DNA of 40,915 nucleotides from positions 1-40,915 of the forward strand of contig CAYHJU010000003.1 of assembly GCA_964357175.1 (NCBI GenBank), read 5' to 3'. The notes beneath the pieces are model-generated. The model did no database searches. It saw only the letters and a program-made list of their open reading frames with translations, and was not told where the DNA came from. Both the position numbers and the translations under genes were made by a program. Below are positions 19,086 through 40,915 of this stretch, piece after piece (position 1 is the stretch's first letter; the number at the start of each line of letters is the position of its first letter). The DNA comes from an uncultured Candidatus Saccharibacteria bacterium (GTDB taxonomy: Bacteria > Patescibacteriota > Minisyncoccia > GWC2-36-17 > CAYHJU01).

Positions 19086-19286
19086 TAAACGCTTTTTATC
19101 TCTCAGATGCTTGTTCAGATAATTTAAGATTCATTTTCGCTTTGATTCAAAACTCGTCCGCCCTGGGCGGACTCAAACAGGTTGAATCAATCCGCCCAAG
19201 GCGGACATATCCGCCTTGGGCGAGACCGCTCAAATTCATCATTAAATTATATCTTCACTGCGCAAATGTTCGATAAAAAGCGTTTA
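19086..19286. mobile_element. B-type nested-palindrome element holding three TCCGCC-NNN-GGCGGA mini-palindromes
   Basis: Perfect 15-bp arms TAAACGCTTTTTATC / GATAAAAAGCGTTTA. Inner arms GATAATTTAA/TTAAATTAT and TTGATTCAA/TTGAATCAA. Mini-repeats at 19157-19171, 19191-19205 and 19210-19224. Confidence 0.7.
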
Positions 19287-20763: not shown

Positions 20764-21807
20764 TTACTTCCTAAACTCCTTGGCCTTTTCTGTATATCTT
20801 CCCACATCTGCGCGCAGAGCATCGCCACAATCATATTTATATTTGTATCCAAATTTTTCTATTTTAGATCCATCAACGATTATCGGATAAGTGTAAGAAT
20901 TTATGCCGGCTGGCACCGTAGGAATTTTGCCACAGCTTACATTCCATAAAAACCAAAATCCAAATTTGCCCAGCCATGCCGGTATACGAATAGTTTTTTT
21001 GCCAATTGAATGCGCCATATCTTTGAGCAAAAAGAAGCAGTGCGGAGCGATATTGAAAATTTCATAATCTCCCCTTGCGCCGCCAAATGCCATCCAAAAA
21101 ATAATATCCGCCACATCGTCTTCATGAATAAATTGGCGCGCCGACTCATCTCCAGTAATAGGAATAATCGGCAGGCCCTCTTTCACCATTTGCAAAAGTC
21201 CAAATCTTTTAAAAATATATTGCCCTCTGGGGCCGGATATGGCGCAGGGCCTGACCATTAAGACTTGCGGCAAAGGATTTTGTCTGGCGCCTTTTTGTAA
21301 ATCGCTTTTTTCTTTTTCAAAAACAGCGCGTAGCTTTTCTTCAATCATCTTTTTATCCACACCATAAAGATATTCGCTTTCTAAAAACGGGTCTTCTTCG
21401 CGAAACCAGCGCTTGATAGAATTTTCCTTGCGCGCGCCATAAGACGCTACGGTAGAAAAATGAATCAGACGCGAAATTTTATTTTTGAAAACAAATTCAA
21501 AAACTTTATCTGCCGCCGTCAAATTGCACTTATTTTGCCATTCTCTTTTTTTGCCATATCCTTCACGAATCACGTAGGCGCAGTGCACCACTACATCCGG
21601 AGCCCCACCCTCCAAAACTTTTTCCTGCCACCCGTCATCTCCCAGATTCCATGTTATCCATTTAAATTTCTGGTTGCCTTTGGGAAATTTATCGCTAGCA
21701 TCTTTCATGTCCAAAACCACCACGCTATCAACTCGTGGGTCTTTTAAAAATAAATCTGCCAGCATCCCGCCAACATATCCCGCCGCACCTGTTATAAATA
21801 TTTTCAT
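20764..21807 (-). CDS. NAD-dependent epimerase/dehydratase (extended SDR)
   Basis: IFITGAAGYVG, VVHCA, HFSTVASYG, YGVDK (YxxxK), QFIHEDDVA. Confidence 0.9.
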   Translation of the reverse strand: MKIFITGAAGYVGGMLADLFLKDPRVDSVVVLDMKDASDKFPKGNQKFKWITWNLGDDGWQEKVLEGGAPDVVVHCAYVIREGYGKKREWQNKCNLTAADKVFEFVFKNKISRLIHFSTVASYGARKENSIKRWFREEDPFLESEYLYGVDKKMIEEKLRAVFEKEKSDLQKGARQNPLPQVLMVRPCAISGPRGQYIFKRFGLLQMVKEGLPIIPITGDESARQFIHEDDVADIIFWMAFGGARGDYEIFNIAPHCFFLLKDMAHSIGKKTIRIPAWLGKFGFWFLWNVSCGKIPTVPAGINSYTYPIIVDGSKIEKFGYKYKYDCGDALRADVGRYTEKAKEFRK

Positions 21808-23099
21808 GATTTAATCCTCTCTCTCTTAATAACTTTAAATTTGCCCAAAAGCCGAGACGCCACCTTGGGCCATTTGATAAGCGGCTCGTTGATAAGCAGG
21901 GCAATCGTTTGTTCCTGCGAATACCCGCCATCTTGCAAGGCCTTGTAAACATTCAGCCCTTCCCAAACGATTTGCTTATATTCATCTTCAAAAATTTGTT
22001 TGTCCGCTTGTTCAAAAAAGCTCTGAATTTTTTGTTTCAACGCTTCATTTTCACCAAAATGCAGATCTTTATAAATTACTTCACCCAAAGTATATTTGCC
22101 CTGAAAAAATATTTCTCTAAGCTGTTTCCTAGTATTGTCAAAATAATTATAGGAACGCTCCTTTTCAACGTTGGTAATCGTTTCAAATATGCCCCTCAAA
22201 GACGCGTCTACTTCTGTTTTCTCAATGGCGTCGTAGCGAGATTTAAGATAGGCCAAAATTTCATTCTTGGCAGACGCCTCTCCCTCTTCACGAAATGATC
22301 TAAAAAATCTCGACAGAGCGCTTTTAATTTTTTCATCATTATTATTCATCGCGGCCTCCATAAAATCGGCGAAAAATCCCTCCCTTTGGGGAATTTCCTT
22401 AAACAGTCTTCTTATGGCGTGCTGTTCCTCGTGCACAAAAATTCTGTCATGATCTTTGTCAGAATTTTTTCCCACCGCCTTTTGCGCGATGATGGTTCCT
22501 GCAAGCTCTTGAATTAATGACGTCTTAATGCTTACGCCGCTAGAATCACTTGCCGAATCTATGTCTTTCGCAGTTAAGACGCGTCCATTTAAAAATGCTT
22601 GGCTGTAGATCAAGGTATAATCTTCCAAATGATAACATTTTACATATAAAGTTATAGGCCCTTCGACTATTTCTACTTTGCCCTGCGGTTTTACGCCAAA
22701 CATCACTTCAAAAAGTTCCGCATCATCGGGATATTCTTTTCTGTATTTACTAACGGCTTGATGTTTTTGTTCATATTCTTGTAAAATTGCTTCGGCAATT
22801 TTTTTCTGCTGGGGAGTAAATCCGTATTTGGCGCCCCACTCATCTAAATTTTTATTTAAATCTTCCAGCGGTATGTCGGGGTTTTCTCTTATTTGAGAAA
22901 CAAAATCTTCTTGCATTTTTGCAAAGCCTTCTTTTTGATAAACATATTTTTCTTTCCACCTATCCAGCGCGTCTTTTCTTTCTTTGGAGGACAACGCCTT
23001 GACGTCTTTCAGCTCAAGCTCCGGAAAAAACATCTCTCCTTCTGAAATTGGAGATTTTTCTTCTTCAGCCTTTTCTATTTTTGGTTTTTCTTGATCCAT
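21804..23099 (-). CDS. Hypothetical protein with HExxH motif, possibly zincin-like
   Basis: IFVHEEQHAI with downstream AKNEILAY; ATGA overlap with the epimerase. Confidence 0.7.
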   Translation of the reverse strand: MDQEKPKIEKAEEEKSPISEGEMFFPELELKDVKALSSKERKDALDRWKEKYVYQKEGFAKMQEDFVSQIRENPDIPLEDLNKNLDEWGAKYGFTPQQKKIAEAILQEYEQKHQAVSKYRKEYPDDAELFEVMFGVKPQGKVEIVEGPITLYVKCYHLEDYTLIYSQAFLNGRVLTAKDIDSASDSSGVSIKTSLIQELAGTIIAQKAVGKNSDKDHDRIFVHEEQHAIRRLFKEIPQREGFFADFMEAAMNNNDEKIKSALSRFFRSFREEGEASAKNEILAYLKSRYDAIEKTEVDASLRGIFETITNVEKERSYNYFDNTRKQLREIFFQGKYTLGEVIYKDLHFGENEALKQKIQSFFEQADKQIFEDEYKQIVWEGLNVYKALQDGGYSQEQTIALLINEPLIKWPKVASRLLGKFKVIKRERIKS

Positions 23100-23125: not shown

Positions 23126-23207
23126 TCCTCCAGAGGCGGACGGATCGCGCGCCTGCCTGCCGCCTGCCTGCCGGTAGGCAGGGTAGGCAGGAATTTAGAG
23201 AATGATT
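23126..23207. repeat. Cluster of mini-palindromes with a self-nested CCTGCCTGCCGGTAGGCAGG
   Basis: TCCTCCAGAGGCGGA at 23126-23140. Outer copy 23152-23162 plus 23183-23191 is split by an intact copy at 23163-23182. Followed by GAATTTAGAGAATGATT, matching half of the 27764 palindrome. Confidence 0.8.
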
Positions 23208-25385: not shown

Positions 25386-26783
25386 TTAATCTTTTAATCC
25401 TATCTTGATGTGTGCTTCTTTGAGCTCTTTTTCTCCAACTTCAGCGGGCGCGCCCATTAAAGGATCCCTGGCATCGCCTGTTTTCGGAAAAGCCATCACT
25501 TCGCGGATATTTGGTTCATCGCACAAAACCGCTACCAATCTATCAAAACCAAAAGCCATGCCGCCATGGGGCGGCGCGCCGTATTCAAACGCTTCCAGCA
25601 TATGTCCAAATCTTTCCTGTATTTCTTTTTCCTTGAGTCCCAATTTTTCAAAAATTTTATTTTGCAAATCTCTTTGGTGTATTCTGATGCTTCCGCCCGC
25701 CACCTCAAATCCATTCAATACCAAGTCATACGCTTTGGCGCGGACTTTTTCCGGTTCTTTTTCCAGCATTTCTATGTCTTCATCCGCTGGGTGCGTGAAG
25801 GGATGATGCGCGCTGACCAATTTTTTCTCTGTTTCGGAAAACTCAAAAAGAGGAGGATCAACGATCCAGGCAAAAGCGAGTTCATTGGGATTATTTTTTC
25901 CGCCCAAGGCGGACTTTCTTAAATCCGGCTTGTCGTTGCCATATTTTTCCATAGACTCTTTAAAGCTAATCCTCGGAAAAGGCGTTTGTGATATTTTTTT
26001 GTCGGGCGCAATCTCCTTTATTATTTCTATCACAATCTTTTCCATTAAACTCATTATCATTTCCTGATCTACAAAACTCATCTCTAAATCCAGCTGGGTA
26101 AATTCTGGCTGCCTGTCTCCTCTTTGATCTTCATCGCGAAAACATCTGGCAACTTGAAAATATCTTTCCACGCCCGCTACCATTAAAAGCTGTTTAAATT
26201 GCTGAGGCGACTGCGGTAAGACATAAAACTTTCCCGGGTGAAGCCGCGCAGGCACTAAAAACTCACGCGATCCCTCCGGCGTGCCTTTAGTTAAATACGG
26301 CGTTTCAATTTCAATAAATCCGTTTTTATAAAACGCTTGGCGAAACGCAAAGGCTAAATCATGGCGCAGTTTTAAATTGGCCGCCATTTTTTCATTTCTT
26401 AAATCTAAATAGCGATATTTTAAGCGCAATTCTTCATCCACCTCTTTACTCTTTTCGATTTCAAAAGGCAAATTTTTCGCCGGGTTGAGTATTTCAAAAT
26501 CCACGGCCTGCAATTCTACCTTGCCCGTTTTTAAATTGGGATTTTTCAATTTTTCCGGACGCTCTGCAACCTTGCCTTTTATTTTTAAAACCCACTCATT
26601 TCTTAAAATATCTGCCTTTTTGGCAACGTCCCCCACAAAAACAACCTGCAGAAGTCCTGTTTTGTCGCGCAAATCTATAAAGATAATTTTGCCGTGATCT
26701 CTTCTCACGTTTACCCACCCAGCCACTTCCACGTCCTCGCCCACCTTATTTATAGTTTCTTCAATAAAAATTCTTTTTTGCAT
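25386..26783 (-). CDS. aspS: Aspartate-tRNA ligase, short form lacking the GAD insertion, probably non-discriminating
   Basis: RRDHGKIIFIDLRD, LKYRYLDLR, LPQSPQQFKQLL, CFRDEDQRGDRQPEFTQLD, GAPPHGG. Start moved to ATG 26783, downstream of the predicted promoter. Confidence 0.96.
   Translation of the reverse strand: MQKRIFIEETINKVGEDVEVAGWVNVRRDHGKIIFIDLRDKTGLLQVVFVGDVAKKADILRNEWVLKIKGKVAERPEKLKNPNLKTGKVELQAVDFEILNPAKNLPFEIEKSKEVDEELRLKYRYLDLRNEKMAANLKLRHDLAFAFRQAFYKNGFIEIETPYLTKGTPEGSREFLVPARLHPGKFYVLPQSPQQFKQLLMVAGVERYFQVARCFRDEDQRGDRQPEFTQLDLEMSFVDQEMIMSLMEKIVIEIIKEIAPDKKISQTPFPRISFKESMEKYGNDKPDLRKSALGGKNNPNELAFAWIVDPPLFEFSETEKKLVSAHHPFTHPADEDIEMLEKEPEKVRAKAYDLVLNGFEVAGGSIRIHQRDLQNKIFEKLGLKEKEIQERFGHMLEAFEYGAPPHGGMAFGFDRLVAVLCDEPNIREVMAFPKTGDARDPLMGAPAEVGEKELKEAHIKIGLKD
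25899..25913. repeat. In-frame 15-nt palindrome inside aspS encoding SALGG
   Basis: TCCGCCCAAGGCGGA, identical to intergenic 19191-19205 and exactly on codon boundaries. Confidence 0.8.
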
Positions 26784-30193: not shown

Positions 30194-31978
30194 ATGACAT
30201 CAAATGAGATCCGAGAAAAATTTCTAAAATTTTTTGAACAAAGGGAACATGCTCGCGCTCCCTCTTCTTCACTTTTGCCAGACGATCCTTCGGTGCTTTT
30301 AACTACTGCCGGAATGCAACAATTCAAGCCGTATTTCACAGGACAAGCCGACCCAATAAAGGATTTTGGCAAAAAAAGCACGACATCTTCTCAAAAATGC
30401 TTTCGCACTTCGGATATTGACGAGGTGGGCGATGAGCGCCACCTGACATTTTTTGAAATGCTGGGAAATTTTTCTTTTGGCGGTTCGCCAGCTGGCGAAT
30501 TAAAAAAAGAAGCAATAAAATACGCCAATGATTTTATAAAAGAACTCGGGCTTGAAATTGATTATGTGACAATTTTCGGTGGCGATCCTGATGTCCCCGA
30601 AGATAAAGACTCAGAAAAATATTGGCTGGAGCTTGGAATTCCGCAAGAAAAAATCAAAAAAATGGGACGCGCGGATAATTTTTGGGGACCTACGGGAAAT
30701 GAAGGCCCTTGCGGTCCGACAACTGAAATTTATGTAAAACCGTCCAAGGAGACCGAAGCCATAGAAATATGGAACGTTGTTTTTAATGAATTTTACTGCC
30801 ATCCAGACAAACATTTAGAAAAACTTTCCACCCCCGGAATTGATACAGGAATGGGACTTGAACGACTGGCCGCGGTCGTCCAAAAAGTTCCGACTGTTTT
30901 TGATACGGATTTATTTGAGCCAATATTAGAAGTTATAAAATCAAAAGAGATTGGTACCCCGGACAGAGATGTCAATGTTATAAAAGCGGAAAGAATTGTA
31001 GCTGATCATATGAAAAGCGCCGTGTTTTTGCTGACTGATGGCATTAGACCATCAAATGTTTTGCAAGGATATATTTTGCGCAGAATAATTCGTCGCAGTA
31101 TCAGGTACGCCAAGATGTTGGGACTTCCGGCTGATTTTTATGCAGACGTGATTGATGAGATTATAAAAATATATGACCACAACTACCCGGATATTTTAAA
31201 ACAAAAAGATGCAATTTTAGATGAACTGCAAAAAGAAATTCAGAAATTTGAAAAAGCAGTTGAACACGGAATTAAAAAATTTGAAGAGTTTTATAATCAG
31301 AAAATTTTTGAAGATGAGGCTTCTGGTGCCAAGTGCGCCTTTGAGCTTTATGAGACATACGGCTTCCCTTTTGAGCTAACCGAAGAGCTTGTGAAAGAGC
31401 GTGGAGGAAAATTGAATAAAAATCTTTTTGAAGACGAGCTTTCACGCCACCAAGAAATTTCCCGCGCGGGAGTTGAGAAAAAATTTGGTGGACACGGACT
31501 AAAATTGGACACGGGCGAACTTAAAGCGGCAAGTGAAGAAGAATTAAAAAAAGTCACGAGACTCCACAGCGCCACCCATTTGCTTCACGCTGGACTGCGC
31601 AAAGTTTTGGGCGACACGATTCAGCAACGCGGATCGGACATTACCGCCGAAAGATTGAGGTTTGATTTTTTGTTTGATAGAAAATTAACAGATGAAGAAA
31701 AGGCGGCCGTGGAAGAATATGTAAATGACGCTGTAACTGCCAATGTTGAAATGATTCATAAAGACGCGCCATACGAGGAGGCAATCGCTTCGGGATTTTT
31801 GGCATTTTTCAGAGGCAAATATCCCGCCATTGTTTCTACTTATGAACTTCCGGGCTGGAGCAAAGAAGTTTGCGGAGGCCCGCATGTTTCACGAAGTGGT
31901 GAAGTGGGAAAGTTTAGAATTATCAAAGATGAAGCGTCCAGCGCTGGAGTAAGAAGAATCAGAGCGACGGTAGAGTAA
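30194..31978 (+). CDS. alaS: Alanine-tRNA ligase, short form lacking C-Ala
   Basis: LLTTAGMQQFKP, SQKCFR, HLTFFEMLGNFSFG, IDTGMGLER, ADHMKS, editing HSATHLLH and CGGPH. Confidence 0.96.
   Translation: MTSNEIREKFLKFFEQREHARAPSSSLLPDDPSVLLTTAGMQQFKPYFTGQADPIKDFGKKSTTSSQKCFRTSDIDEVGDERHLTFFEMLGNFSFGGSPAGELKKEAIKYANDFIKELGLEIDYVTIFGGDPDVPEDKDSEKYWLELGIPQEKIKKMGRADNFWGPTGNEGPCGPTTEIYVKPSKETEAIEIWNVVFNEFYCHPDKHLEKLSTPGIDTGMGLERLAAVVQKVPTVFDTDLFEPILEVIKSKEIGTPDRDVNVIKAERIVADHMKSAVFLLTDGIRPSNVLQGYILRRIIRRSIRYAKMLGLPADFYADVIDEIIKIYDHNYPDILKQKDAILDELQKEIQKFEKAVEHGIKKFEEFYNQKIFEDEASGAKCAFELYETYGFPFELTEELVKERGGKLNKNLFEDELSRHQEISRAGVEKKFGGHGLKLDTGELKAASEEELKKVTRLHSATHLLHAGLRKVLGDTIQQRGSDITAERLRFDFLFDRKLTDEEKAAVEEYVNDAVTANVEMIHKDAPYEEAIASGFLAFFRGKYPAIVSTYELPGWSKEVCGGPHVSRSGEVGKFRIIKDEASSAGVRRIRATVE
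30484..30499. repeat. 16-nt palindrome inside alaS
   Basis: TTCGCCAGCTGGCGAA; same CGCCAGCTGGCG core as the intergenic palindrome at 37763-37784. Confidence 0.75.
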
Positions 31979-37762: not shown

Positions 37763-37784
37763 TATTCCGCCAGCTGGCGGAATA
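37763..37784. repeat. Perfect 22-bp palindrome TATTCCGCCAGCTGGCGGAATA
   Basis: Read directly; core shared with the alaS insert. Confidence 0.85.
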
Positions 37785-37808: not shown

Positions 37809-39005
37809 TTAAGATTTGATTTTTGAGATTTGTTTAGCCATCTCCCCCATTTCGTCTGTCTTTAAAACTAAAACTTCAACTTTTGATCCTGCAGAGCTTA
37901 TCGCGCCGTCTTTATCTATAATTTTTTCATTTTTTGACTTATCAATTTTGATTCCTAAAAATTCTAAATCTTTGCATATACGAACGCGCATAATTGGCGA
38001 ACCCTCACCGATGGCGGCTGTAAAAATGAGCGCATTCAGCCCACCCATCGCCGCCGCGTAACTTCCGATATATTTTTTAACACGATAAGAAAAAATATCC
38101 AATGCCAGTCGCGCTTTTTTATTGCCCACTTCATCTAATTCTATTAATTTTCTTACATCCGCCGTTTTTTCGCTCAAGCCCAAAAGTCCGCACTTTTCAT
38201 TTAAAAACTCATCTAATTTTTTTGGCGATAAATTTAATTTTTGCTGTAAATAAACAAGGGCTCCGGCGTCAATATCGCCTGTTCTTGTGCCCATTACAAC
38301 CCCCTCAAGAGGTGTAAATCCCATAGACGTATCAAAGCTTTTGTCGTTTTTCACAGCCGTAATGCTTGCCCCACTCCCCAAATGGCAGATGATTATTTTT
38401 TCAGGAATTTTCTTATTTTTCTCTTTTAATTTATTGATAATAGACTGGCAGGAAATACCATGAAATCCATATCTATGGATTTTCAAACTCTGGGAAATTT
38501 TAAATGGCAGACCATAAAATTTAGAAACATCTGGCAAATCTTTATGAAATTCCGTATCAAATATCGCCACCTTTTTAATATCTGGCAATATTTTCATAAA
38601 TTCTTTTATTTCTGAAATAACAGGTACTAGATGCAAAGGGGCAAGTTCTTTTATTTTTTCTAGCTGAAGAATAAAATTTTTATCAATTTTAGTCGGCGCA
38701 AAAAACTTTTGACCTCCGTGCACCACTCGAAAACCCAAAGCGTCAATTTCTCTTCCTGTTTTTATCAATTTTTCCTTTTTTAAAATATCTATTATTTTCT
38801 GGCTACTTTTTAGAAAATCATTTTTTGAAATTTTAAAACTTTTTTTAGGCTCGCCGCCTCTTTCCTCCCCAAAGGGGTAAATGTGCGACATAAAGCCGTC
38901 TCCCGCCATTTCAAAGTGCGCAAAAAACCTGCGCCTTCCGTTCTCATAAAAAGCGTATTTTTGTGAAGAACTGCCGACATTTACGATTAAAAGTTTTTTT
39001 GCCAT
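37809..39005 (-). CDS. ackA: Acetate kinase
   Basis: LIVNVGSSSQKY, GFRVVHGG, LAPLH, FDTEFH, RYGFHGIS, CHLGSGAS, TSMGFTPLEG, FTAAIGE. Start at 39005 or 39011, overlapping the xfp stop. Confidence 0.95.
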   Translation of the reverse strand: MAKKLLIVNVGSSSQKYAFYENGRRRFFAHFEMAGDGFMSHIYPFGEERGGEPKKSFKISKNDFLKSSQKIIDILKKEKLIKTGREIDALGFRVVHGGQKFFAPTKIDKNFILQLEKIKELAPLHLVPVISEIKEFMKILPDIKKVAIFDTEFHKDLPDVSKFYGLPFKISQSLKIHRYGFHGISCQSIINKLKEKNKKIPEKIIICHLGSGASITAVKNDKSFDTSMGFTPLEGVVMGTRTGDIDAGALVYLQQKLNLSPKKLDEFLNEKCGLLGLSEKTADVRKLIELDEVGNKKARLALDIFSYRVKKYIGSYAAAMGGLNALIFTAAIGEGSPIMRVRICKDLEFLGIKIDKSKNEKIIDKDGAISSAGSKVEVLVLKTDEMGEMAKQISKIKS

Positions 39006-40915
39006 TGCCAATTTGTTATTTCTTCGGGATCAACCCCGTATTTAATAATATAATCCTTGTGTTTTATAATTTTGTCTTTATATTGGGCCATGAGTTTTTC
39101 TGCTTTGTCTGCACTCACCAACCCTCTTTCGCCCATCAGGCCCAGTGCCTCTATCACCAGGTGCCACCTGCTAGTATTGTTGCGAAGCTGCATATCAAAA
39201 GGAGTGGTGGTGGAGCCGCTTTCTGTGTAGCCATGAACTAAAAATCTTTCCTGATTTTTCTCGCCAAAAAGCACCTGTTTGAAAGTTTCCGGATATCCGT
39301 AAAAATTAAATATCACCGGCTTGTCTTTAGTAAAATATTTTTCAAAGTCCATAAACGGAACTTTGCACTCTCCTTCGCTAAAGCCCGCCGCGGTAAGCTC
39401 TATGATATTTACAAAACGAATTCTTATTTCCGGCACAATTTTTCTTAAAATATCAATAGCGGACAGGGCCTCTTTGACTAAATAATCCCCCACTGCCGAT
39501 ATTACGATGTCCGGATTTTCATCGCTGGCAAAATCCCAAACACTCAATCCTTTTTCTAGTTCTTTTTGCGCTTGATCCAGTGTGAGCCATTGAGGTTCGT
39601 CGGTTTTCCCCGCGGCTATTATATTTATTTCATTTTTCGACTTCAGGCATTTTTCCAAAACAGCCAAAGCGCTATTGGCATCTGACGGAAAATAAACATG
39701 CACAAAGCAACCGTGCTTTTCAAGCATATTGCTTATAAATCCGGGATTTTGATGAGAAAAGCCATTGTGATCTTGCCTCCAGCCCGGGGAGGTTAAAATG
39801 TAATTGAGCGACGCCACCTCGCCTCGCCAATGAATTTCACGCATATGTTTTAAAAACTTGGCATATTGGTCTGCCATACTGCTGACAATTTGCACAAACG
39901 CTTCATATGACGCAAAAATCGCATGGCGACCTGTCAAAATGTATCCCTGAGCCAGTCCCTGCAAATTGTGCTCACTCAACATTTCCATAACTCTGCCTGA
40001 AGAAGAAAGGTCTTTGTCCCACTTTTTTAAAGGCAATGCAAAAACGCGCTTGGTAGAGGTAAATACTTCATCCAATTTATTTGAATAAGTTTCATCCGGC
40101 GACATTAGACGAAAATTTTTGTTTTCTTTATTTAGATCAAAAATTTCTTTTAGGCAGCGCCCTACTTTTTTCATACTACTAGCGAAGACGGTGCCAGGGT
40201 TTGCAATATCAAAATTTATCGCAAGGCTTTTAATGTCTGGAAGCAAAAGCGGCTTGTAAGAAAACGCTCCGAAGGCGTGCTTGTTTTGTCCCATTTTATA
40301 TTCATCCTCCGGTATAATATCTAAAATATCTTTGGCGAGCCCACTGTTTTTATCAAAAATTTCATTAAACTTATATGAACGCATCCATTTTTCTACGGCC
40401 TTAAGCTCCACCTTGCTTGTTTTAGCGCTCGTACCCACGACTTGATGGGACAAACAATTTCCCTCAATTTTTTCTCCGTGCAAACTTTTAATGCCCGTCC
40501 ATCCCTTGGGGGTCTTAAGTATTATCATCGGCCAGCGGGGCACTGCACCGTCCTTTCCTGAGCGCGCTTTTTCCTGAGTGGCCCTAATAGATTGATGTGC
40601 CTTTTCTAAAACATCAACCATTTTCTTATAGACCTTATCACTGTGGCCTTCCACAATAATTGGCGCGTATCCATATCCATAAAATAGAGATTTTAATTCT
40701 CTATTGGTCATTCGGCCAAAAATGGTAGGTCCGGAAATTTTATATCCATTGACATGAAGTATCGGCAAAACCGCCCCGTCATTTTTTGGATCAATTAATT
40801 TATTCAGATGCCATGATCCGGCCATAGGCCCTGTTTCCGCCTCACCATCCCCCACCAAACACGCGCTTATTAAATCGGGATTATCCAAAACGGAACCATA
40901 AGCCGTAGATAGGCT
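38987..40915 (-). CDS. xfp: Xylulose-5-P/fructose-6-P phosphoketolase, N-terminus outside the window
   Basis: GDGEAETGP, LHVNGYKISGPT, PDETYSNKL, EMLSEH, YEAF, WRQDHNGFSHQNPGF. The frame stays open to the edge (SLSTAYGSVLDNPD), so the TTG at 40888 is internal. Confidence 0.96.
   Translation of the reverse strand, partial: SLSTAYGSVLDNPDLISACLVGDGEAETGPMAGSWHLNKLIDPKNDGAVLPILHVNGYKISGPTIFGRMTNRELKSLFYGYGYAPIIVEGHSDKVYKKMVDVLEKAHQSIRATQEKARSGKDGAVPRWPMIILKTPKGWTGIKSLHGEKIEGNCLSHQVVGTSAKTSKVELKAVEKWMRSYKFNEIFDKNSGLAKDILDIIPEDEYKMGQNKHAFGAFSYKPLLLPDIKSLAINFDIANPGTVFASSMKKVGRCLKEIFDLNKENKNFRLMSPDETYSNKLDEVFTSTKRVFALPLKKWDKDLSSSGRVMEMLSEHNLQGLAQGYILTGRHAIFASYEAFVQIVSSMADQYAKFLKHMREIHWRGEVASLNYILTSPGWRQDHNGFSHQNPGFISNMLEKHGCFVHVYFPSDANSALAVLEKCLKSKNEINIIAAGKTDEPQWLTLDQAQKELEKGLSVWDFASDENPDIVISAVGDYLVKEALSAIDILRKIVPEIRIRFVNIIELTAAGFSEGECKVPFMDFEKYFTKDKPVIFNFYGYPETFKQVLFGEKNQERFLVHGYTESGSTTTPFDMQLRNNTSRWHLVIEALGLMGERGLVSADKAEKLMAQYKDKIIKHKDYIIKYGVDPEEITNWQWQKNF

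What the first reader, a model, noticed from the sequence alone, without database searches (positions are those of the whole stretch)
25899..25913. An intergenic mini-palindrome inserted in frame in aspartyl-tRNA synthetase
Seen: TCCGCCCAAGGCGGA, identical to 19191-19205 and related to 19157, 19210 and 23126, lies exactly on codon boundaries and adds SALGG in DKPDLRK-SALGG-KNNPNELAF. This is the short linker that replaces the GAD domain in this AspRS. Established: Rickettsia palindromic elements insert in frame into housekeeping genes, but they are about 100-150 bp. Inference: a 15-nt selfish unit whose length keeps the frame and creates new peptide loops in essential proteins.
Basis: partly seen in the sequence, partly recalled or inferred. 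Interest (0 to 1): 0.65.

Follow-up and report, generated by a model that had tools for sequence, protein, structure and literature searches.

The report
Tiny hairpin repeat inserted in AspRS
A 15-base GC-rich hairpin repeat, found across this tiny groundwater bacterium's genome and its whole phylum, was copied in frame into its only aspartyl-tRNA synthetase gene, adding a small surface loop, and the same happened in several other essential genes.

Summary
TCCGCCCAAGGCGGA sits at 25899-25913, in frame in the only AspRS gene (25386-26783, minus strand), and encodes S-A-L-G-G. It is one of 25 exact TCCGCC-N3-GGCGGA copies in a 758-kb genome (none expected by chance).

It is a derived insertion. 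Of 120 homologues, 116 have a 7-residue linker (K-D-K-x-x-x-N). Only this genome and its 94%-identical sister carry the unit. The 91%-identical relative has one GAC (Asp) codon there. So 15 nt replaced 3 nt, a net gain of 4 residues, not 5.

The site is the 12-residue linker that stands in for the ~123-residue GAD domain. It is predicted to be a low-confidence coil.

The same unit, alone or in 30- and 60-nt composites, is in frame in TsaD and the CCA-adding enzyme, where close relatives lack it. It also sits in SMC, ParA and DnaJ. Another Patescibacteria lineage gained a different 15-nt hairpin one codon away in AspRS.

The motif occurs in 128 of 301 Patescibacteria genomes (control 6 of 301). 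Each genome examined has its own dominant loop.

No mobilising enzyme was found; Y1/RAYT and small GIY-YIG genes show no link. My reading is a very small REP/SDR/RPE-like repeat tolerated as a passenger loop. It is a new variant of a known kind.

The parts
25899..25913 (-). 15-nt perfect palindrome. The coding strand reads TCC GCC TTG GGC GGA and encodes S291-A-L-G-G295 of AspRS. It is the inserted unit ('U1').
   Evidence: It is absent in the 91%-identical orthologue, which has GAC there (L004-L007). It is present as TCC GCC TCG GGC GGA in the 94%-identical orthologue (L001-L003). The RNA hairpin is 6 bp plus a 3-nt loop, dG -8.9 kcal/mol.
25386..26783 (-). Aspartyl-tRNA synthetase gene, bacterial type but without the GAD domain, 465 aa (P0001). 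It is the only AspRS in a genome estimated 100% complete.
25881..25916 (-). Linker K290-E301 (KSALGGKNNPNE) that stands in for the ~123-residue GAD insertion domain. This is the permissive site of the insertion.
   Evidence: two-stretch alignment to 1EFW. (AF2: coil over 282-300, pLDDT below 50 at 292-295). (the linker is 7 residues in 116 of 120 homologues).
19157..19171 (.). Intergenic family copy TCCGCCCTGGGCGGA.
19191..19205 (.). Intergenic family copy identical to the AspRS unit.
19210..19224 (.). Degenerate family copy TCCGCCTTGGGCGAG (2 mismatches), 4 nt after the previous copy.
19087..19285 (.). 199-nt repeated element with 14-nt terminal inverted repeats (AAACGCTTTTTATC ... GATAAAAAGCGTTT). 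It carries the three intergenic units. At least 5 copies exist in the genome, with 2-4 units each.
23126..23140 (.). Imperfect relative TCCTCCAGAGGCGGA. On the minus strand its 3' arm, GGAGGA, is the likely Shine-Dalgarno site of the gene at 21804-23099. Family membership is doubtful.
   Evidence: A similar sequence is present at the syntenic site in L004.
30484..30499 (+). Sister unit TTCGCCAGCTGGCGAA (4-nt loop), in frame in AlaRS (GNFSFG-GSPAGE-LKKE).
   Evidence: No orthologue comparison was done here.
37766..37781 (.). Intergenic TCCGCCAGCTGGCGGA (same arms, 4-nt loop), 27 nt past the 3' end of the gene at 37809-39011.

Best explanation
The 15 nt are a solo copy of a dispersed family of GC-rich mini-hairpin repeats. 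The arms are TCCGCC/GGCGGA and the loop is 3 nt.

What is shown:
- The unit was copied into the AspRS gene in the common ancestor of this organism and its 94%-identical sister lineage. It replaced one Asp codon.

What is inferred:
- It persists for four reasons. Its length is a multiple of three. Frame 0 has no stop. It encodes small flexible residues (Ser-Ala-x-Gly-Gly). It sits in an exposed, unconstrained linker where other bacteria carry a whole GAD domain.
- It is most likely a neutral or slightly harmful passenger, not an adaptation of AspRS.
- The family behaves like very small mobile or copy-pasted DNA. It is mostly intergenic, often just past gene or tRNA 3' ends. It comes in tandem and nested arrays. 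Each genome has its own dominant variant. It seeds loops in other essential proteins.

What is unknown:
- How copies are made. There is no target-site duplication, no cognate Y1/RAYT transposase and no link to small GIY-YIG nucleases. Some trans-acting, hairpin-recognising or template-switching process is inferred, not shown.
For: Family membership:
- There are 25 exact copies in 758 kb, and it is the only enriched GC-rich 6+3+6 palindrome.
- 12 of the 25 are the very 15-mer found in AspRS, in either orientation.

Derived state:
- The linker is 7 residues in 116 of 120 homologues.
- DNA of the 91%- and 70%-identical orthologues reads AAG GAC AAG and CAG GAT AAA at the site.
- The sister lineage keeps both arms and differs in the loop.

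Permissive site.

Recurrence in this genome:
- TsaD carries U1 plus CCAGCC-TCG-GGCTGG, 30 nt.
- The CCA-adding enzyme carries a clean 60-nt, 20-residue insertion.
- Both are absent from 84-91%-identical relatives.
- The 60-nt composite is also in SMC and ParA. It is in TsaD of a related genome too, at the site where this genome has the 30-nt form.

Independent event elsewhere:
- Another lineage gained a different 15-nt hairpin insert (CCC GAA GGG GCA AGC) one codon away in AspRS. Its close relative lacks it.

Purifying filter:
- Only 3 of 25 copies lie in credible genes, although ORFs of 90 aa or more cover about 87% of the genome.

Distribution:
- The motif is in 128 of 301 Patescibacteria genomes, with up to 71 copies. 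The reversed control is in 6 of 301.
- The dominant loop differs by genome: CAA/TTG here and AGA/TCT in G117. This fits amplification within each genome.
Against: - No enzyme or mechanism was identified. The genome has no Y1 transposase.
- Y1-like genes in 20 loci of other genomes are flanked by other hairpins, never by the N3 unit.
- Copy number does not track Y1 counts (rho 0.20, p 0.22) or GIY-YIG counts (rho 0.18, p 0.27).
- No consistent target-site duplication or target motif appears in the filled/empty pairs.
- Identical arms across a whole phylum are unusual for a purely selfish repeat. They could point to a host function.
- The AspRS event is not a clean 15-nt addition, because one codon was lost.
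- Arm conservation between the two carrier lineages is not statistically informative. Gene-wide nucleotide identity is 87%, which gives P of about 0.2 for 12 unchanged bases.
Confidence: 0.75

Rival explanations
1. The family has a host function, for example as REP-like transcript-end, mRNA-stabilising or protein-binding hairpins conserved across Patescibacteria. The AspRS copy would be an accidental ectopic copy made by illegitimate recombination or templated repair. On this reading the unit is not selfish and has no dedicated mobility machinery.
For: - The arms are identical phylum-wide.
- Many intergenic copies lie 7-43 nt past the 3' ends of genes or tRNAs.
- No transposase is linked to the unit.
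Against: - The distribution is patchy and burst-like, from 0 to 71 copies per genome.
- Each genome has its own dominant loop variant.
- Arrays are tandem or nested with variable copy number.
- Most copies have no U-tract after the hairpin.
- These features fit amplification better than site-by-site selection. The two readings are not exclusive.
Confidence: 0.13
2. The hairpin inside AspRS is itself selected. It could act as an mRNA or DNA structure, for example a translational pause between the two halves of the catalytic core, an internal RNase barrier, or a terminator of antisense transcription. Alternatively the SALGG loop could be adaptive.
For: - Both arms are intact in two lineages that are 87% identical in DNA, while the loop changed.
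- Compensatory arm changes occur between copies of the 60-nt composite.
- On the antisense strand the hairpin is flanked by T-rich runs.
Against: - The unit is absent from 116 of 120 orthologues, including a 91%-identical one.
- Arm conservation is not significant.
- The flanking A/T runs are ancestral Lys/Asn codons, present without the hairpin.
- The same unit occurs in unrelated genes and in spacers.
- Compensatory changes in palindromes can arise by arm-to-arm template switching, without selection (established knowledge).
Confidence: 0.08
3. The palindrome arose locally and only resembles the family by coincidence. Codons for small residues are mutually reverse-complementary (Ser TCC / Gly GGA; Ala GCC / Gly GGC).
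For: The conserved motif-3 peptide APPHGG of the same gene forms a 16-nt palindrome, GCCGCCATGGGGCGGC, at 25560-25575 purely through codon choice.
Against: - There is an abrupt +12-nt difference from close orthologues.
- The 15 of 15 identity is to the most common family variant, which has 12 copies.
- The unit is 73% GC in a 42% GC gene.
- Parallel events occurred in TsaD and the CCA-adding enzyme.
Confidence: 0.04

Closest known systems
Rickettsia palindromic elements (RPEs; Ogata et al. 2000, 2002; summarised in PMC10969869, PMC2229807, PMC6649704)
   Same: Palindromic repeats inserted in frame into conserved housekeeping genes of a reduced genome. The proteins stay intact, and the inserts are thought to sit at exposed sites.
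   Different: RPEs are about 100-150 bp with about 12-bp terminal repeats, and each family encodes a recognisable peptide. They are restricted to Rickettsia. Here the unit is 15 nt (5 codons), with composites of 30 and 60 nt. It is GC-rich in an AT-rich genome and occurs across the phylum Patescibacteria.
Cyanobacterial small dispersed repeats (SDR; Elhai et al. 2008, Genome Res 18:1484; cited in PMC3116915; details are from my own knowledge because the paper is not held)
   Same: Very small hairpin-forming dispersed repeats with no known transposase. They insert into one another and into genes, and they show presence/absence differences between close relatives.
   Different: SDRs are 21-27 nt and cyanobacterial. 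The unit here is 15 nt, is modular in multiples of 15, and has arms conserved across a phylum.
REP / REPIN elements mobilised by RAYT (Y1) transposases (PMC3116915, PMC3733652)
   Same: Short GC-rich stem-loops that are mostly extragenic, often just past gene ends, single or in clusters, with genome-specific variants.
   Different: REPs are 20-40 nt, usually carry a GTAG or CGTC head, and have a cognate RAYT flanked by them. Here there is no such head. The genome has no Y1 gene, and Y1-like genes in other Patescibacteria are flanked by other hairpins.
GC-rich palindromic clusters and double-hairpin elements of fungal mitochondria (yeast GC clusters, Allomyces DHEs; from my own knowledge)
   Same: Short GC-rich hairpins spreading in an AT-rich, reduced genome, with optional in-frame inserts in protein genes.
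   Different: These are organellar, typically 30-60 nt or more, and the mechanism may differ. No sequence relation was tested.

Membership tests
Rickettsia palindromic elements (RPE) | In-frame insertion into conserved protein genes, leaving the ORF and catalytic motifs intact | tested here: met
   AspRS, TsaD and the CCA-adding enzyme keep their invariant residues. The inserts are absent in close relatives.
Rickettsia palindromic elements (RPE) | Element length of about 100-150 bp with terminal inverted repeats and a family-specific peptide | tested here: not met
   The unit is 15 nt. The largest composite is 60 nt.
Rickettsia palindromic elements (RPE) | Sequence homology to RPE-1 to RPE-10, and occurrence in Rickettsia | not tested
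   The host is a Patescibacteria genome. No RPE sequences were compared.
REP/REPIN-RAYT | A cognate Y1 (RAYT) transposase gene flanked by the repeats | tested here: not met
   PF01797 is absent from this genome. At 20 Y1-like loci in 10 other genomes, no TCCGCC-N3-GGCGGA lies in the fetched flanks of about 1.3 kb. The flanking hairpins are different. There is no copy-number correlation.
REP/REPIN-RAYT | A 20-40-nt imperfect palindrome with a GTAG or CGTC head (PMC3733652) | tested here: not met
   The unit is a 15-nt perfect palindrome starting with TCCG.
REP/REPIN-RAYT | High copy number and predominantly extragenic location | tested here: inconclusive
   There are 25 N3 and 18 N4 copies. About 22 of the 25 N3 copies lie outside credible genes. 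Copy number is modest.
Small dispersed repeats (SDR, cyanobacteria) | Very small hairpin repeats (under 30 nt) that nest within one another and occur in genes | tested here: met
   In the 60-nt composite, two 15-nt units lie inside the stem of CCAGCC-N3-GGCTGG. The 30-nt and 60-nt forms occupy the same TsaD site in two genomes.
Small dispersed repeats (SDR, cyanobacteria) | Membership of SDR1-8 sequence families, and a cyanobacterial host | not testable with these tools
   The paper and its sequences are not held. The host phylum is different.
MITE | Terminal inverted repeats plus target-site duplication, derived from an IS | tested here: not met
   No TSD is seen at the AspRS, CCA-enzyme or PEGAS filled/empty pairs. 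The TsaD case is ambiguous. The 199-nt carrier element at 19087-19285 does have TIRs, but it is not what inserted into AspRS.
DNA uptake sequences (DUS/USS) | Strong genome-wide excess of the single half-site, including in coding DNA | tested here: not met
   TCCGCC occurs 554 times on both strands against 501 expected from a maximal-order Markov model. The excess is in the palindromic arrangement only.
Intrinsic terminators | A GC-rich hairpin followed directly by a U-tract | tested here: not met
   The flanks of the 25 copies show no consistent T-run. The same is true of the G117 copies.

The most novel reading that the evidence does not exclude
The 15-nt hairpin modules are the smallest mobile units yet seen in cellular genomes. 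They would be moved in trans, across the whole phylum Patescibacteria, by a still-unidentified structure-specific host or element enzyme. That enzyme would be neither a RAYT nor an obvious GIY-YIG partner. Because the units come in multiples of three and encode Ser/Ala/Gly/Pro-rich peptides, they would act as a continuing source of new surface loops in essential proteins (AspRS, AlaRS, TsaD, CCA-adding enzyme, SMC, DnaJ, UvrA).
Probability: 0.25. Interest if true: 0.8.

Novelty: new variant of a known kind. Interest (0 to 1): 0.6.

Why it matters
In-frame palindromic repeats in housekeeping genes are known mainly from Rickettsia, at 100-150 bp. Here the unit is only five codons and modular: 15, 30 and 60 nt. 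It recurs in at least six essential genes of one 0.76-Mb genome, and it belongs to a motif present in about 40% of sampled Patescibacteria genomes.

If the units are truly mobile, they set a new lower size limit for mobile DNA. They would also give a concrete, testable route by which ultra-small genomes gain protein loops.

There is a practical consequence too. These inserts create lineage-specific indels in marker proteins used for phylogeny and annotation of the Candidate Phyla Radiation.

Tried and rejected
- Rfam on the window (gathering threshold) and on 13 palindrome-bearing loci (E up to 0.1). Only tRNAs and tmRNA turned up nearby. No family covers the hairpins.
- RAYT/IS200 link. There is no PF01797 in this genome, no correlation over 41 genomes, and no U1 next to 20 Y1-like genes elsewhere.
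- GIY-YIG link, a lead from earlier notes. Six small GIY-YIG genes exist here, but their neighbouring hairpins are CCTGCC...GGCAGG and others, not U1. The Spearman correlation is 0.18.
- Uptake-sequence idea. The half-site is not enriched.
- Terminator idea. There are no U-tracts.
- Target-site duplication or a target motif. Nothing is consistent across four filled/empty pairs.
- Selection on the arms, from the two carrier lineages. The test is underpowered.
- The Elhai 2008 paper is not held.
- Literature searches found no description of such units in Patescibacteria. The library is incomplete, so this is weak evidence of novelty.

Full report
**1. Observation.** The window is contig C3 of a 757,863-bp, 30-contig, 39% GC genome. 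Its closest named relatives are Parcubacteria/CPR metagenome bins. TCCGCCCAAGGCGGA lies at 25899-25913. Exact TCCGCC-N3-GGCGGA occurs three times in the window against none in 100 shuffles.

The ORF at 25386-26783 (minus strand) is a 465-residue AspRS, P0001. On its coding strand the unit reads AAG|TCC GCC TTG GGC GGA|AAA, which is K-SALGG-K on codon boundaries. It is the only AspRS in a genome scored 100% complete.

**2. It is a derived insertion.**
- Among the 120 best homologues (62-94% identity), 116 have a 7-residue linker between KPDLR and ELAF, typically K-D-K-N-D-P-N.
- Only P0001 (KSALGGKNNPN) and its 94%-identical sister P0002 (KSASGGKNDPN) carry the unit.
- At the DNA level, P0002 comes from three independent assemblies (L001-L003) and has TCC GCC TCG GGC GGA. 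The arms are intact and the loop differs.
- P0003 is 91% identical, comes from four assemblies and includes GW2011_GWA2_39_18. It has AAG GAC AAG at the site. P0004, at 70% identity, has CAG GAT AAA.
- So 15 nt stand where one Asp codon stood. The net change is +12 nt and +4 residues, on the branch leading to the window and P0002 lineages.
- The three lineages are 84-87% identical in DNA. Conservation of the 12 arm bases between the two carriers has P of about 0.2 and says nothing about selection.
- The unit is 73% GC in a 42% GC gene.

**3. The site.** P0001 aligns to Thermus thermophilus AspRS (1EFW) in two stretches: 13-289 to 14-294, and 302-459 to 418-575. Residues 290-301 (KSALGGKNNPNE) therefore replace the ~123-residue GAD insertion domain.

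An AlphaFold2 model built on the 26-sequence alignment has mean pLDDT 75. It gives coil for 282-300 and pLDDT below 50 for 292-295. The model is only moderately confident overall, so this is supporting evidence rather than strong evidence.

A second, independent event marks the site as permissive. In another Patescibacteria lineage (P0007/L009 and P0045/L010), a different 15-nt insert, CCC GAA GGG GCA AGC, follows the same Asp codon. It contains the hairpin CCCC-GAA-GGGG. The close relative P0008/L011 lacks it.

**4. The family in this genome.**
- TCCGCC is the only GC-rich arm enriched among 6+3+6 palindromes, with 25 copies. With a 4-nt loop the same arms occur 18 times, mostly as TCCGCCAGCTGGCGGA. 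A second family, CCTGCC-N4-GGCAGG, has 47 copies.
- Twelve of the 25 copies are the very 15-mer of AspRS, in either orientation. Six have loop CTG/CAG, three CGA/TCG, two AAA/TTT, one AGA/TCT and one CCA/TGG.
- Copies occur singly, abutting (15+15), or at a 19-nt period.
- Several sit inside a ~200-nt repeat with 14-nt terminal inverted repeats, whose copies carry 2-4 units.
- Intergenic copies often lie shortly past the 3' ends of genes or tRNAs. They lack U-tracts.
- ORFs of 90 aa or more cover about 87% of the genome, yet only three of the 25 N3 copies lie in credible genes. This indicates purifying selection against most coding insertions.

**5. Other essential genes carry it, in frame.**
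- TsaD (C1:82255-83328, minus strand) has NF-[SARGG PASGW]-DFSFSG. This is TCCGCCAGAGGCGGA followed by CCAGCCTCGGGCTGG.
- The CCA-adding enzyme (C21) has LGF-[SAQGGPQPQADEPWAQASGW]-EIEEKT, a 60-nt insert.
- In alignments, the closest TsaD relatives P0124 and P0125 lack the insert. The four closest CCA-enzyme relatives (84-88% identical by BLASTP, 86-91% in the alignment) show a clean 20-residue gap.
- TsaD of P0123 carries a 60-nt version at the same site where this genome has 30 nt. That version is 87% identical to the insert in this genome's CCA-adding enzyme.
- The 60-mer folds as the 15-nt hairpin plus a 42-nt nested hairpin, dG about -37 kcal/mol. It can be read as two 15-nt T...A units lodged inside the stem of CCAGCC-N3-GGCTGG.
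- Copies differ by paired, compensatory arm changes.
- Two more 57-60-nt copies lie in frame in SMC and in the C-terminal tail of ParA. DnaJ has PSSGW and PASGW units in its G/F region. MnmA and AlaRS carry the 4-nt-loop variants.
- All three N3 units in credible genes here are in frame 0 (SAxGG). That is suggestive, but it is only three cases.

**6. Beyond this genome.**
- The motif occurs in 24 of the 41 nearest genomes and in 128 of 301 genomes sampled across the phylum. Counts reach 71, 60 and 43.
- The same-composition reversed palindrome occurs in 6 of 301.
- In G117, about 85% of the listed copies are TCCGCC-AGA/TCT-GGCGGA. Nearly all of the 26 copies inspected are intergenic, within longer AT-rich repeat contexts.
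- In G034, a double unit is in frame in a UvrA-like ORF (SPPKADPPRAE), and another ORF carries SAQGG.
- Identical arms with genome-specific dominant loops fit amplification within genomes under a shared constraint on the arms.

**7. Mechanism.** None could be pinned down.
- There is no Y1/RAYT gene in this genome.
- Y1-like genes are common in relatives (26 of 41 genomes) and in high-copy genomes (10 of 12). Their presence does not track unit number (rho 0.20, p 0.22; Mann-Whitney p 0.91).
- At 20 such loci the flanking hairpins are other sequences. None is the N3 unit.
- Earlier notes of this scan proposed small GIY-YIG nucleases as hairpin mobilisers. Six such genes exist here, but the hairpins beside them are CCTGCC...GGCAGG and others. 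Counts do not correlate (rho 0.18).
- The half-site is not enriched on its own, so an uptake-signal model fails.
- Filled/empty pairs show no consistent target duplication.

I therefore commit to a reading in two parts. Shown: the AspRS unit is a copy of a dispersed hairpin repeat, acquired recently and tolerated in a permissive linker. Inferred: copies arise by a trans-acting or template-switching process that recognises the hairpin, and the AspRS copy is a passenger without function.

**8. Comparison with what is known, and novelty.** The behaviour matches three known kinds:
- Rickettsia palindromic elements, for in-frame inserts in housekeeping genes (PMC10969869, PMC2229807).
- Cyanobacterial small dispersed repeats, for very small, nesting, enzyme-less elements (reference in PMC3116915).
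- REPs, for GC-rich, mostly extragenic hairpins (PMC3733652).

It fails the defining tests of each family. It is too small for an RPE. It has no RAYT and no GTAG/CGTC head, so it is not a REP. It has no TIR or TSD, so it is not a MITE. My literature searches found no description in Patescibacteria, though the library is incomplete. I rate it a new variant of a known kind.

**9. Limits.**
- Gene calls were ORF-based.
- The relatives used are metagenome assemblies.
- The SMC, ParA, DnaJ, MnmA and AlaRS inserts were not checked against orthologues here.

Noticed in passing
window 19087-19285 (also C1:1983-2180, C1:81995-82270, C14:4681-4925, C27:5465-5654): A ~200-nt repeated element with 14-nt terminal inverted repeats (AAACGCTTTTTATC / GATAAAAAGCGTTT) and conserved ends. 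Its interior holds a variable array (2-4) of the mini-palindromes, or a different long hairpin. It has no Rfam match. It lies upstream of the rpsL-side operon and could be a MITE or a structured leader.
   Followed up: partly
window 23140-23190; 47 copies genome-wide: A second hairpin family, CCTGCC(TGCC)GGCAGG(CAGG). Copies sit about 45-50 nt upstream of two of the six small (82-111 aa) GIY-YIG genes (C1:51350, C13:22677).
   Followed up: partly
window 30484-30499: TTCGCCAGCTGGCGAA is in frame in AlaRS (GNFSFG-GSPAGE-LKKE). This is the same phenomenon with a 4-nt loop, already noted by another agent of this scan.
   Followed up: partly
L009:501-1880 and L010:285-1691 (AspRS of other Patescibacteria): An independent 15-nt GC-rich hairpin insert (CCC GAA GGG GCA AGC, peptide PEGAS/PEGAG) follows the same Asp codon of the GAD-replacing linker. 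It is absent in close relative L011.
   Followed up: yes
L025:1501-2646 (TsaD of P0124) and L026 (TsaD of P0123): Close relatives' TsaD genes carry other in-frame inserts bounded by CCCCCACACC ... GGTGTGGGGG (about 105 nt in P0124; a shorter piece with GGTGTGGGGG in P0123). GTGTGGGG/CCCCACAC is among the most over-represented 8-mers in this genome (91 copies).
   Followed up: partly
window 25560-25575: The conserved motif-3 peptide APPHGG of AspRS is encoded by a 16-nt perfect palindrome, GCCGCCATGGGGCGGC, through codon complementarity alone. This warns that SAxGG/APPxGG-type peptides can mimic repeat units.
   Followed up: no
window 23126-23140 (minus strand): The imperfect unit TCCGCCTCTGGAGGA pairs an anti-SD-like arm with the GGAGGA Shine-Dalgarno of the gene at 21804-23099. 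It may be an SD-sequestering hairpin. It is conserved in relative L004.
   Followed up: no
L063-L066, L068, L071, L074, L075 (Y1-like loci of other Patescibacteria genomes): Y1_Tnp-like ORFs (mostly about 220-250 aa; about 160 aa in L074) are flanked on both sides by their own 17-40-nt hairpins, for example ACTTGGAAGTCCGGCTTCCAAGT. These look like bona fide REP/RAYT or IS200-type systems in Patescibacteria.
   Followed up: no
C8:7015-8112 (DnaJ), C8:14888-17074 (SMC), C19:13706-14761 (ParA), C6:11452-12615 (MnmA), C11:6461-8710 (FtsK-like): These are further in-frame GC-rich hairpin units in essential genes of the same genome. The peptides are PASGW/PSSGW, HQPWAEVGLGPK, LEPEAHQPGVEVDLGP, NPPAGG and AGPRPVGLGP. 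They were not checked against orthologues.
   Followed up: partly
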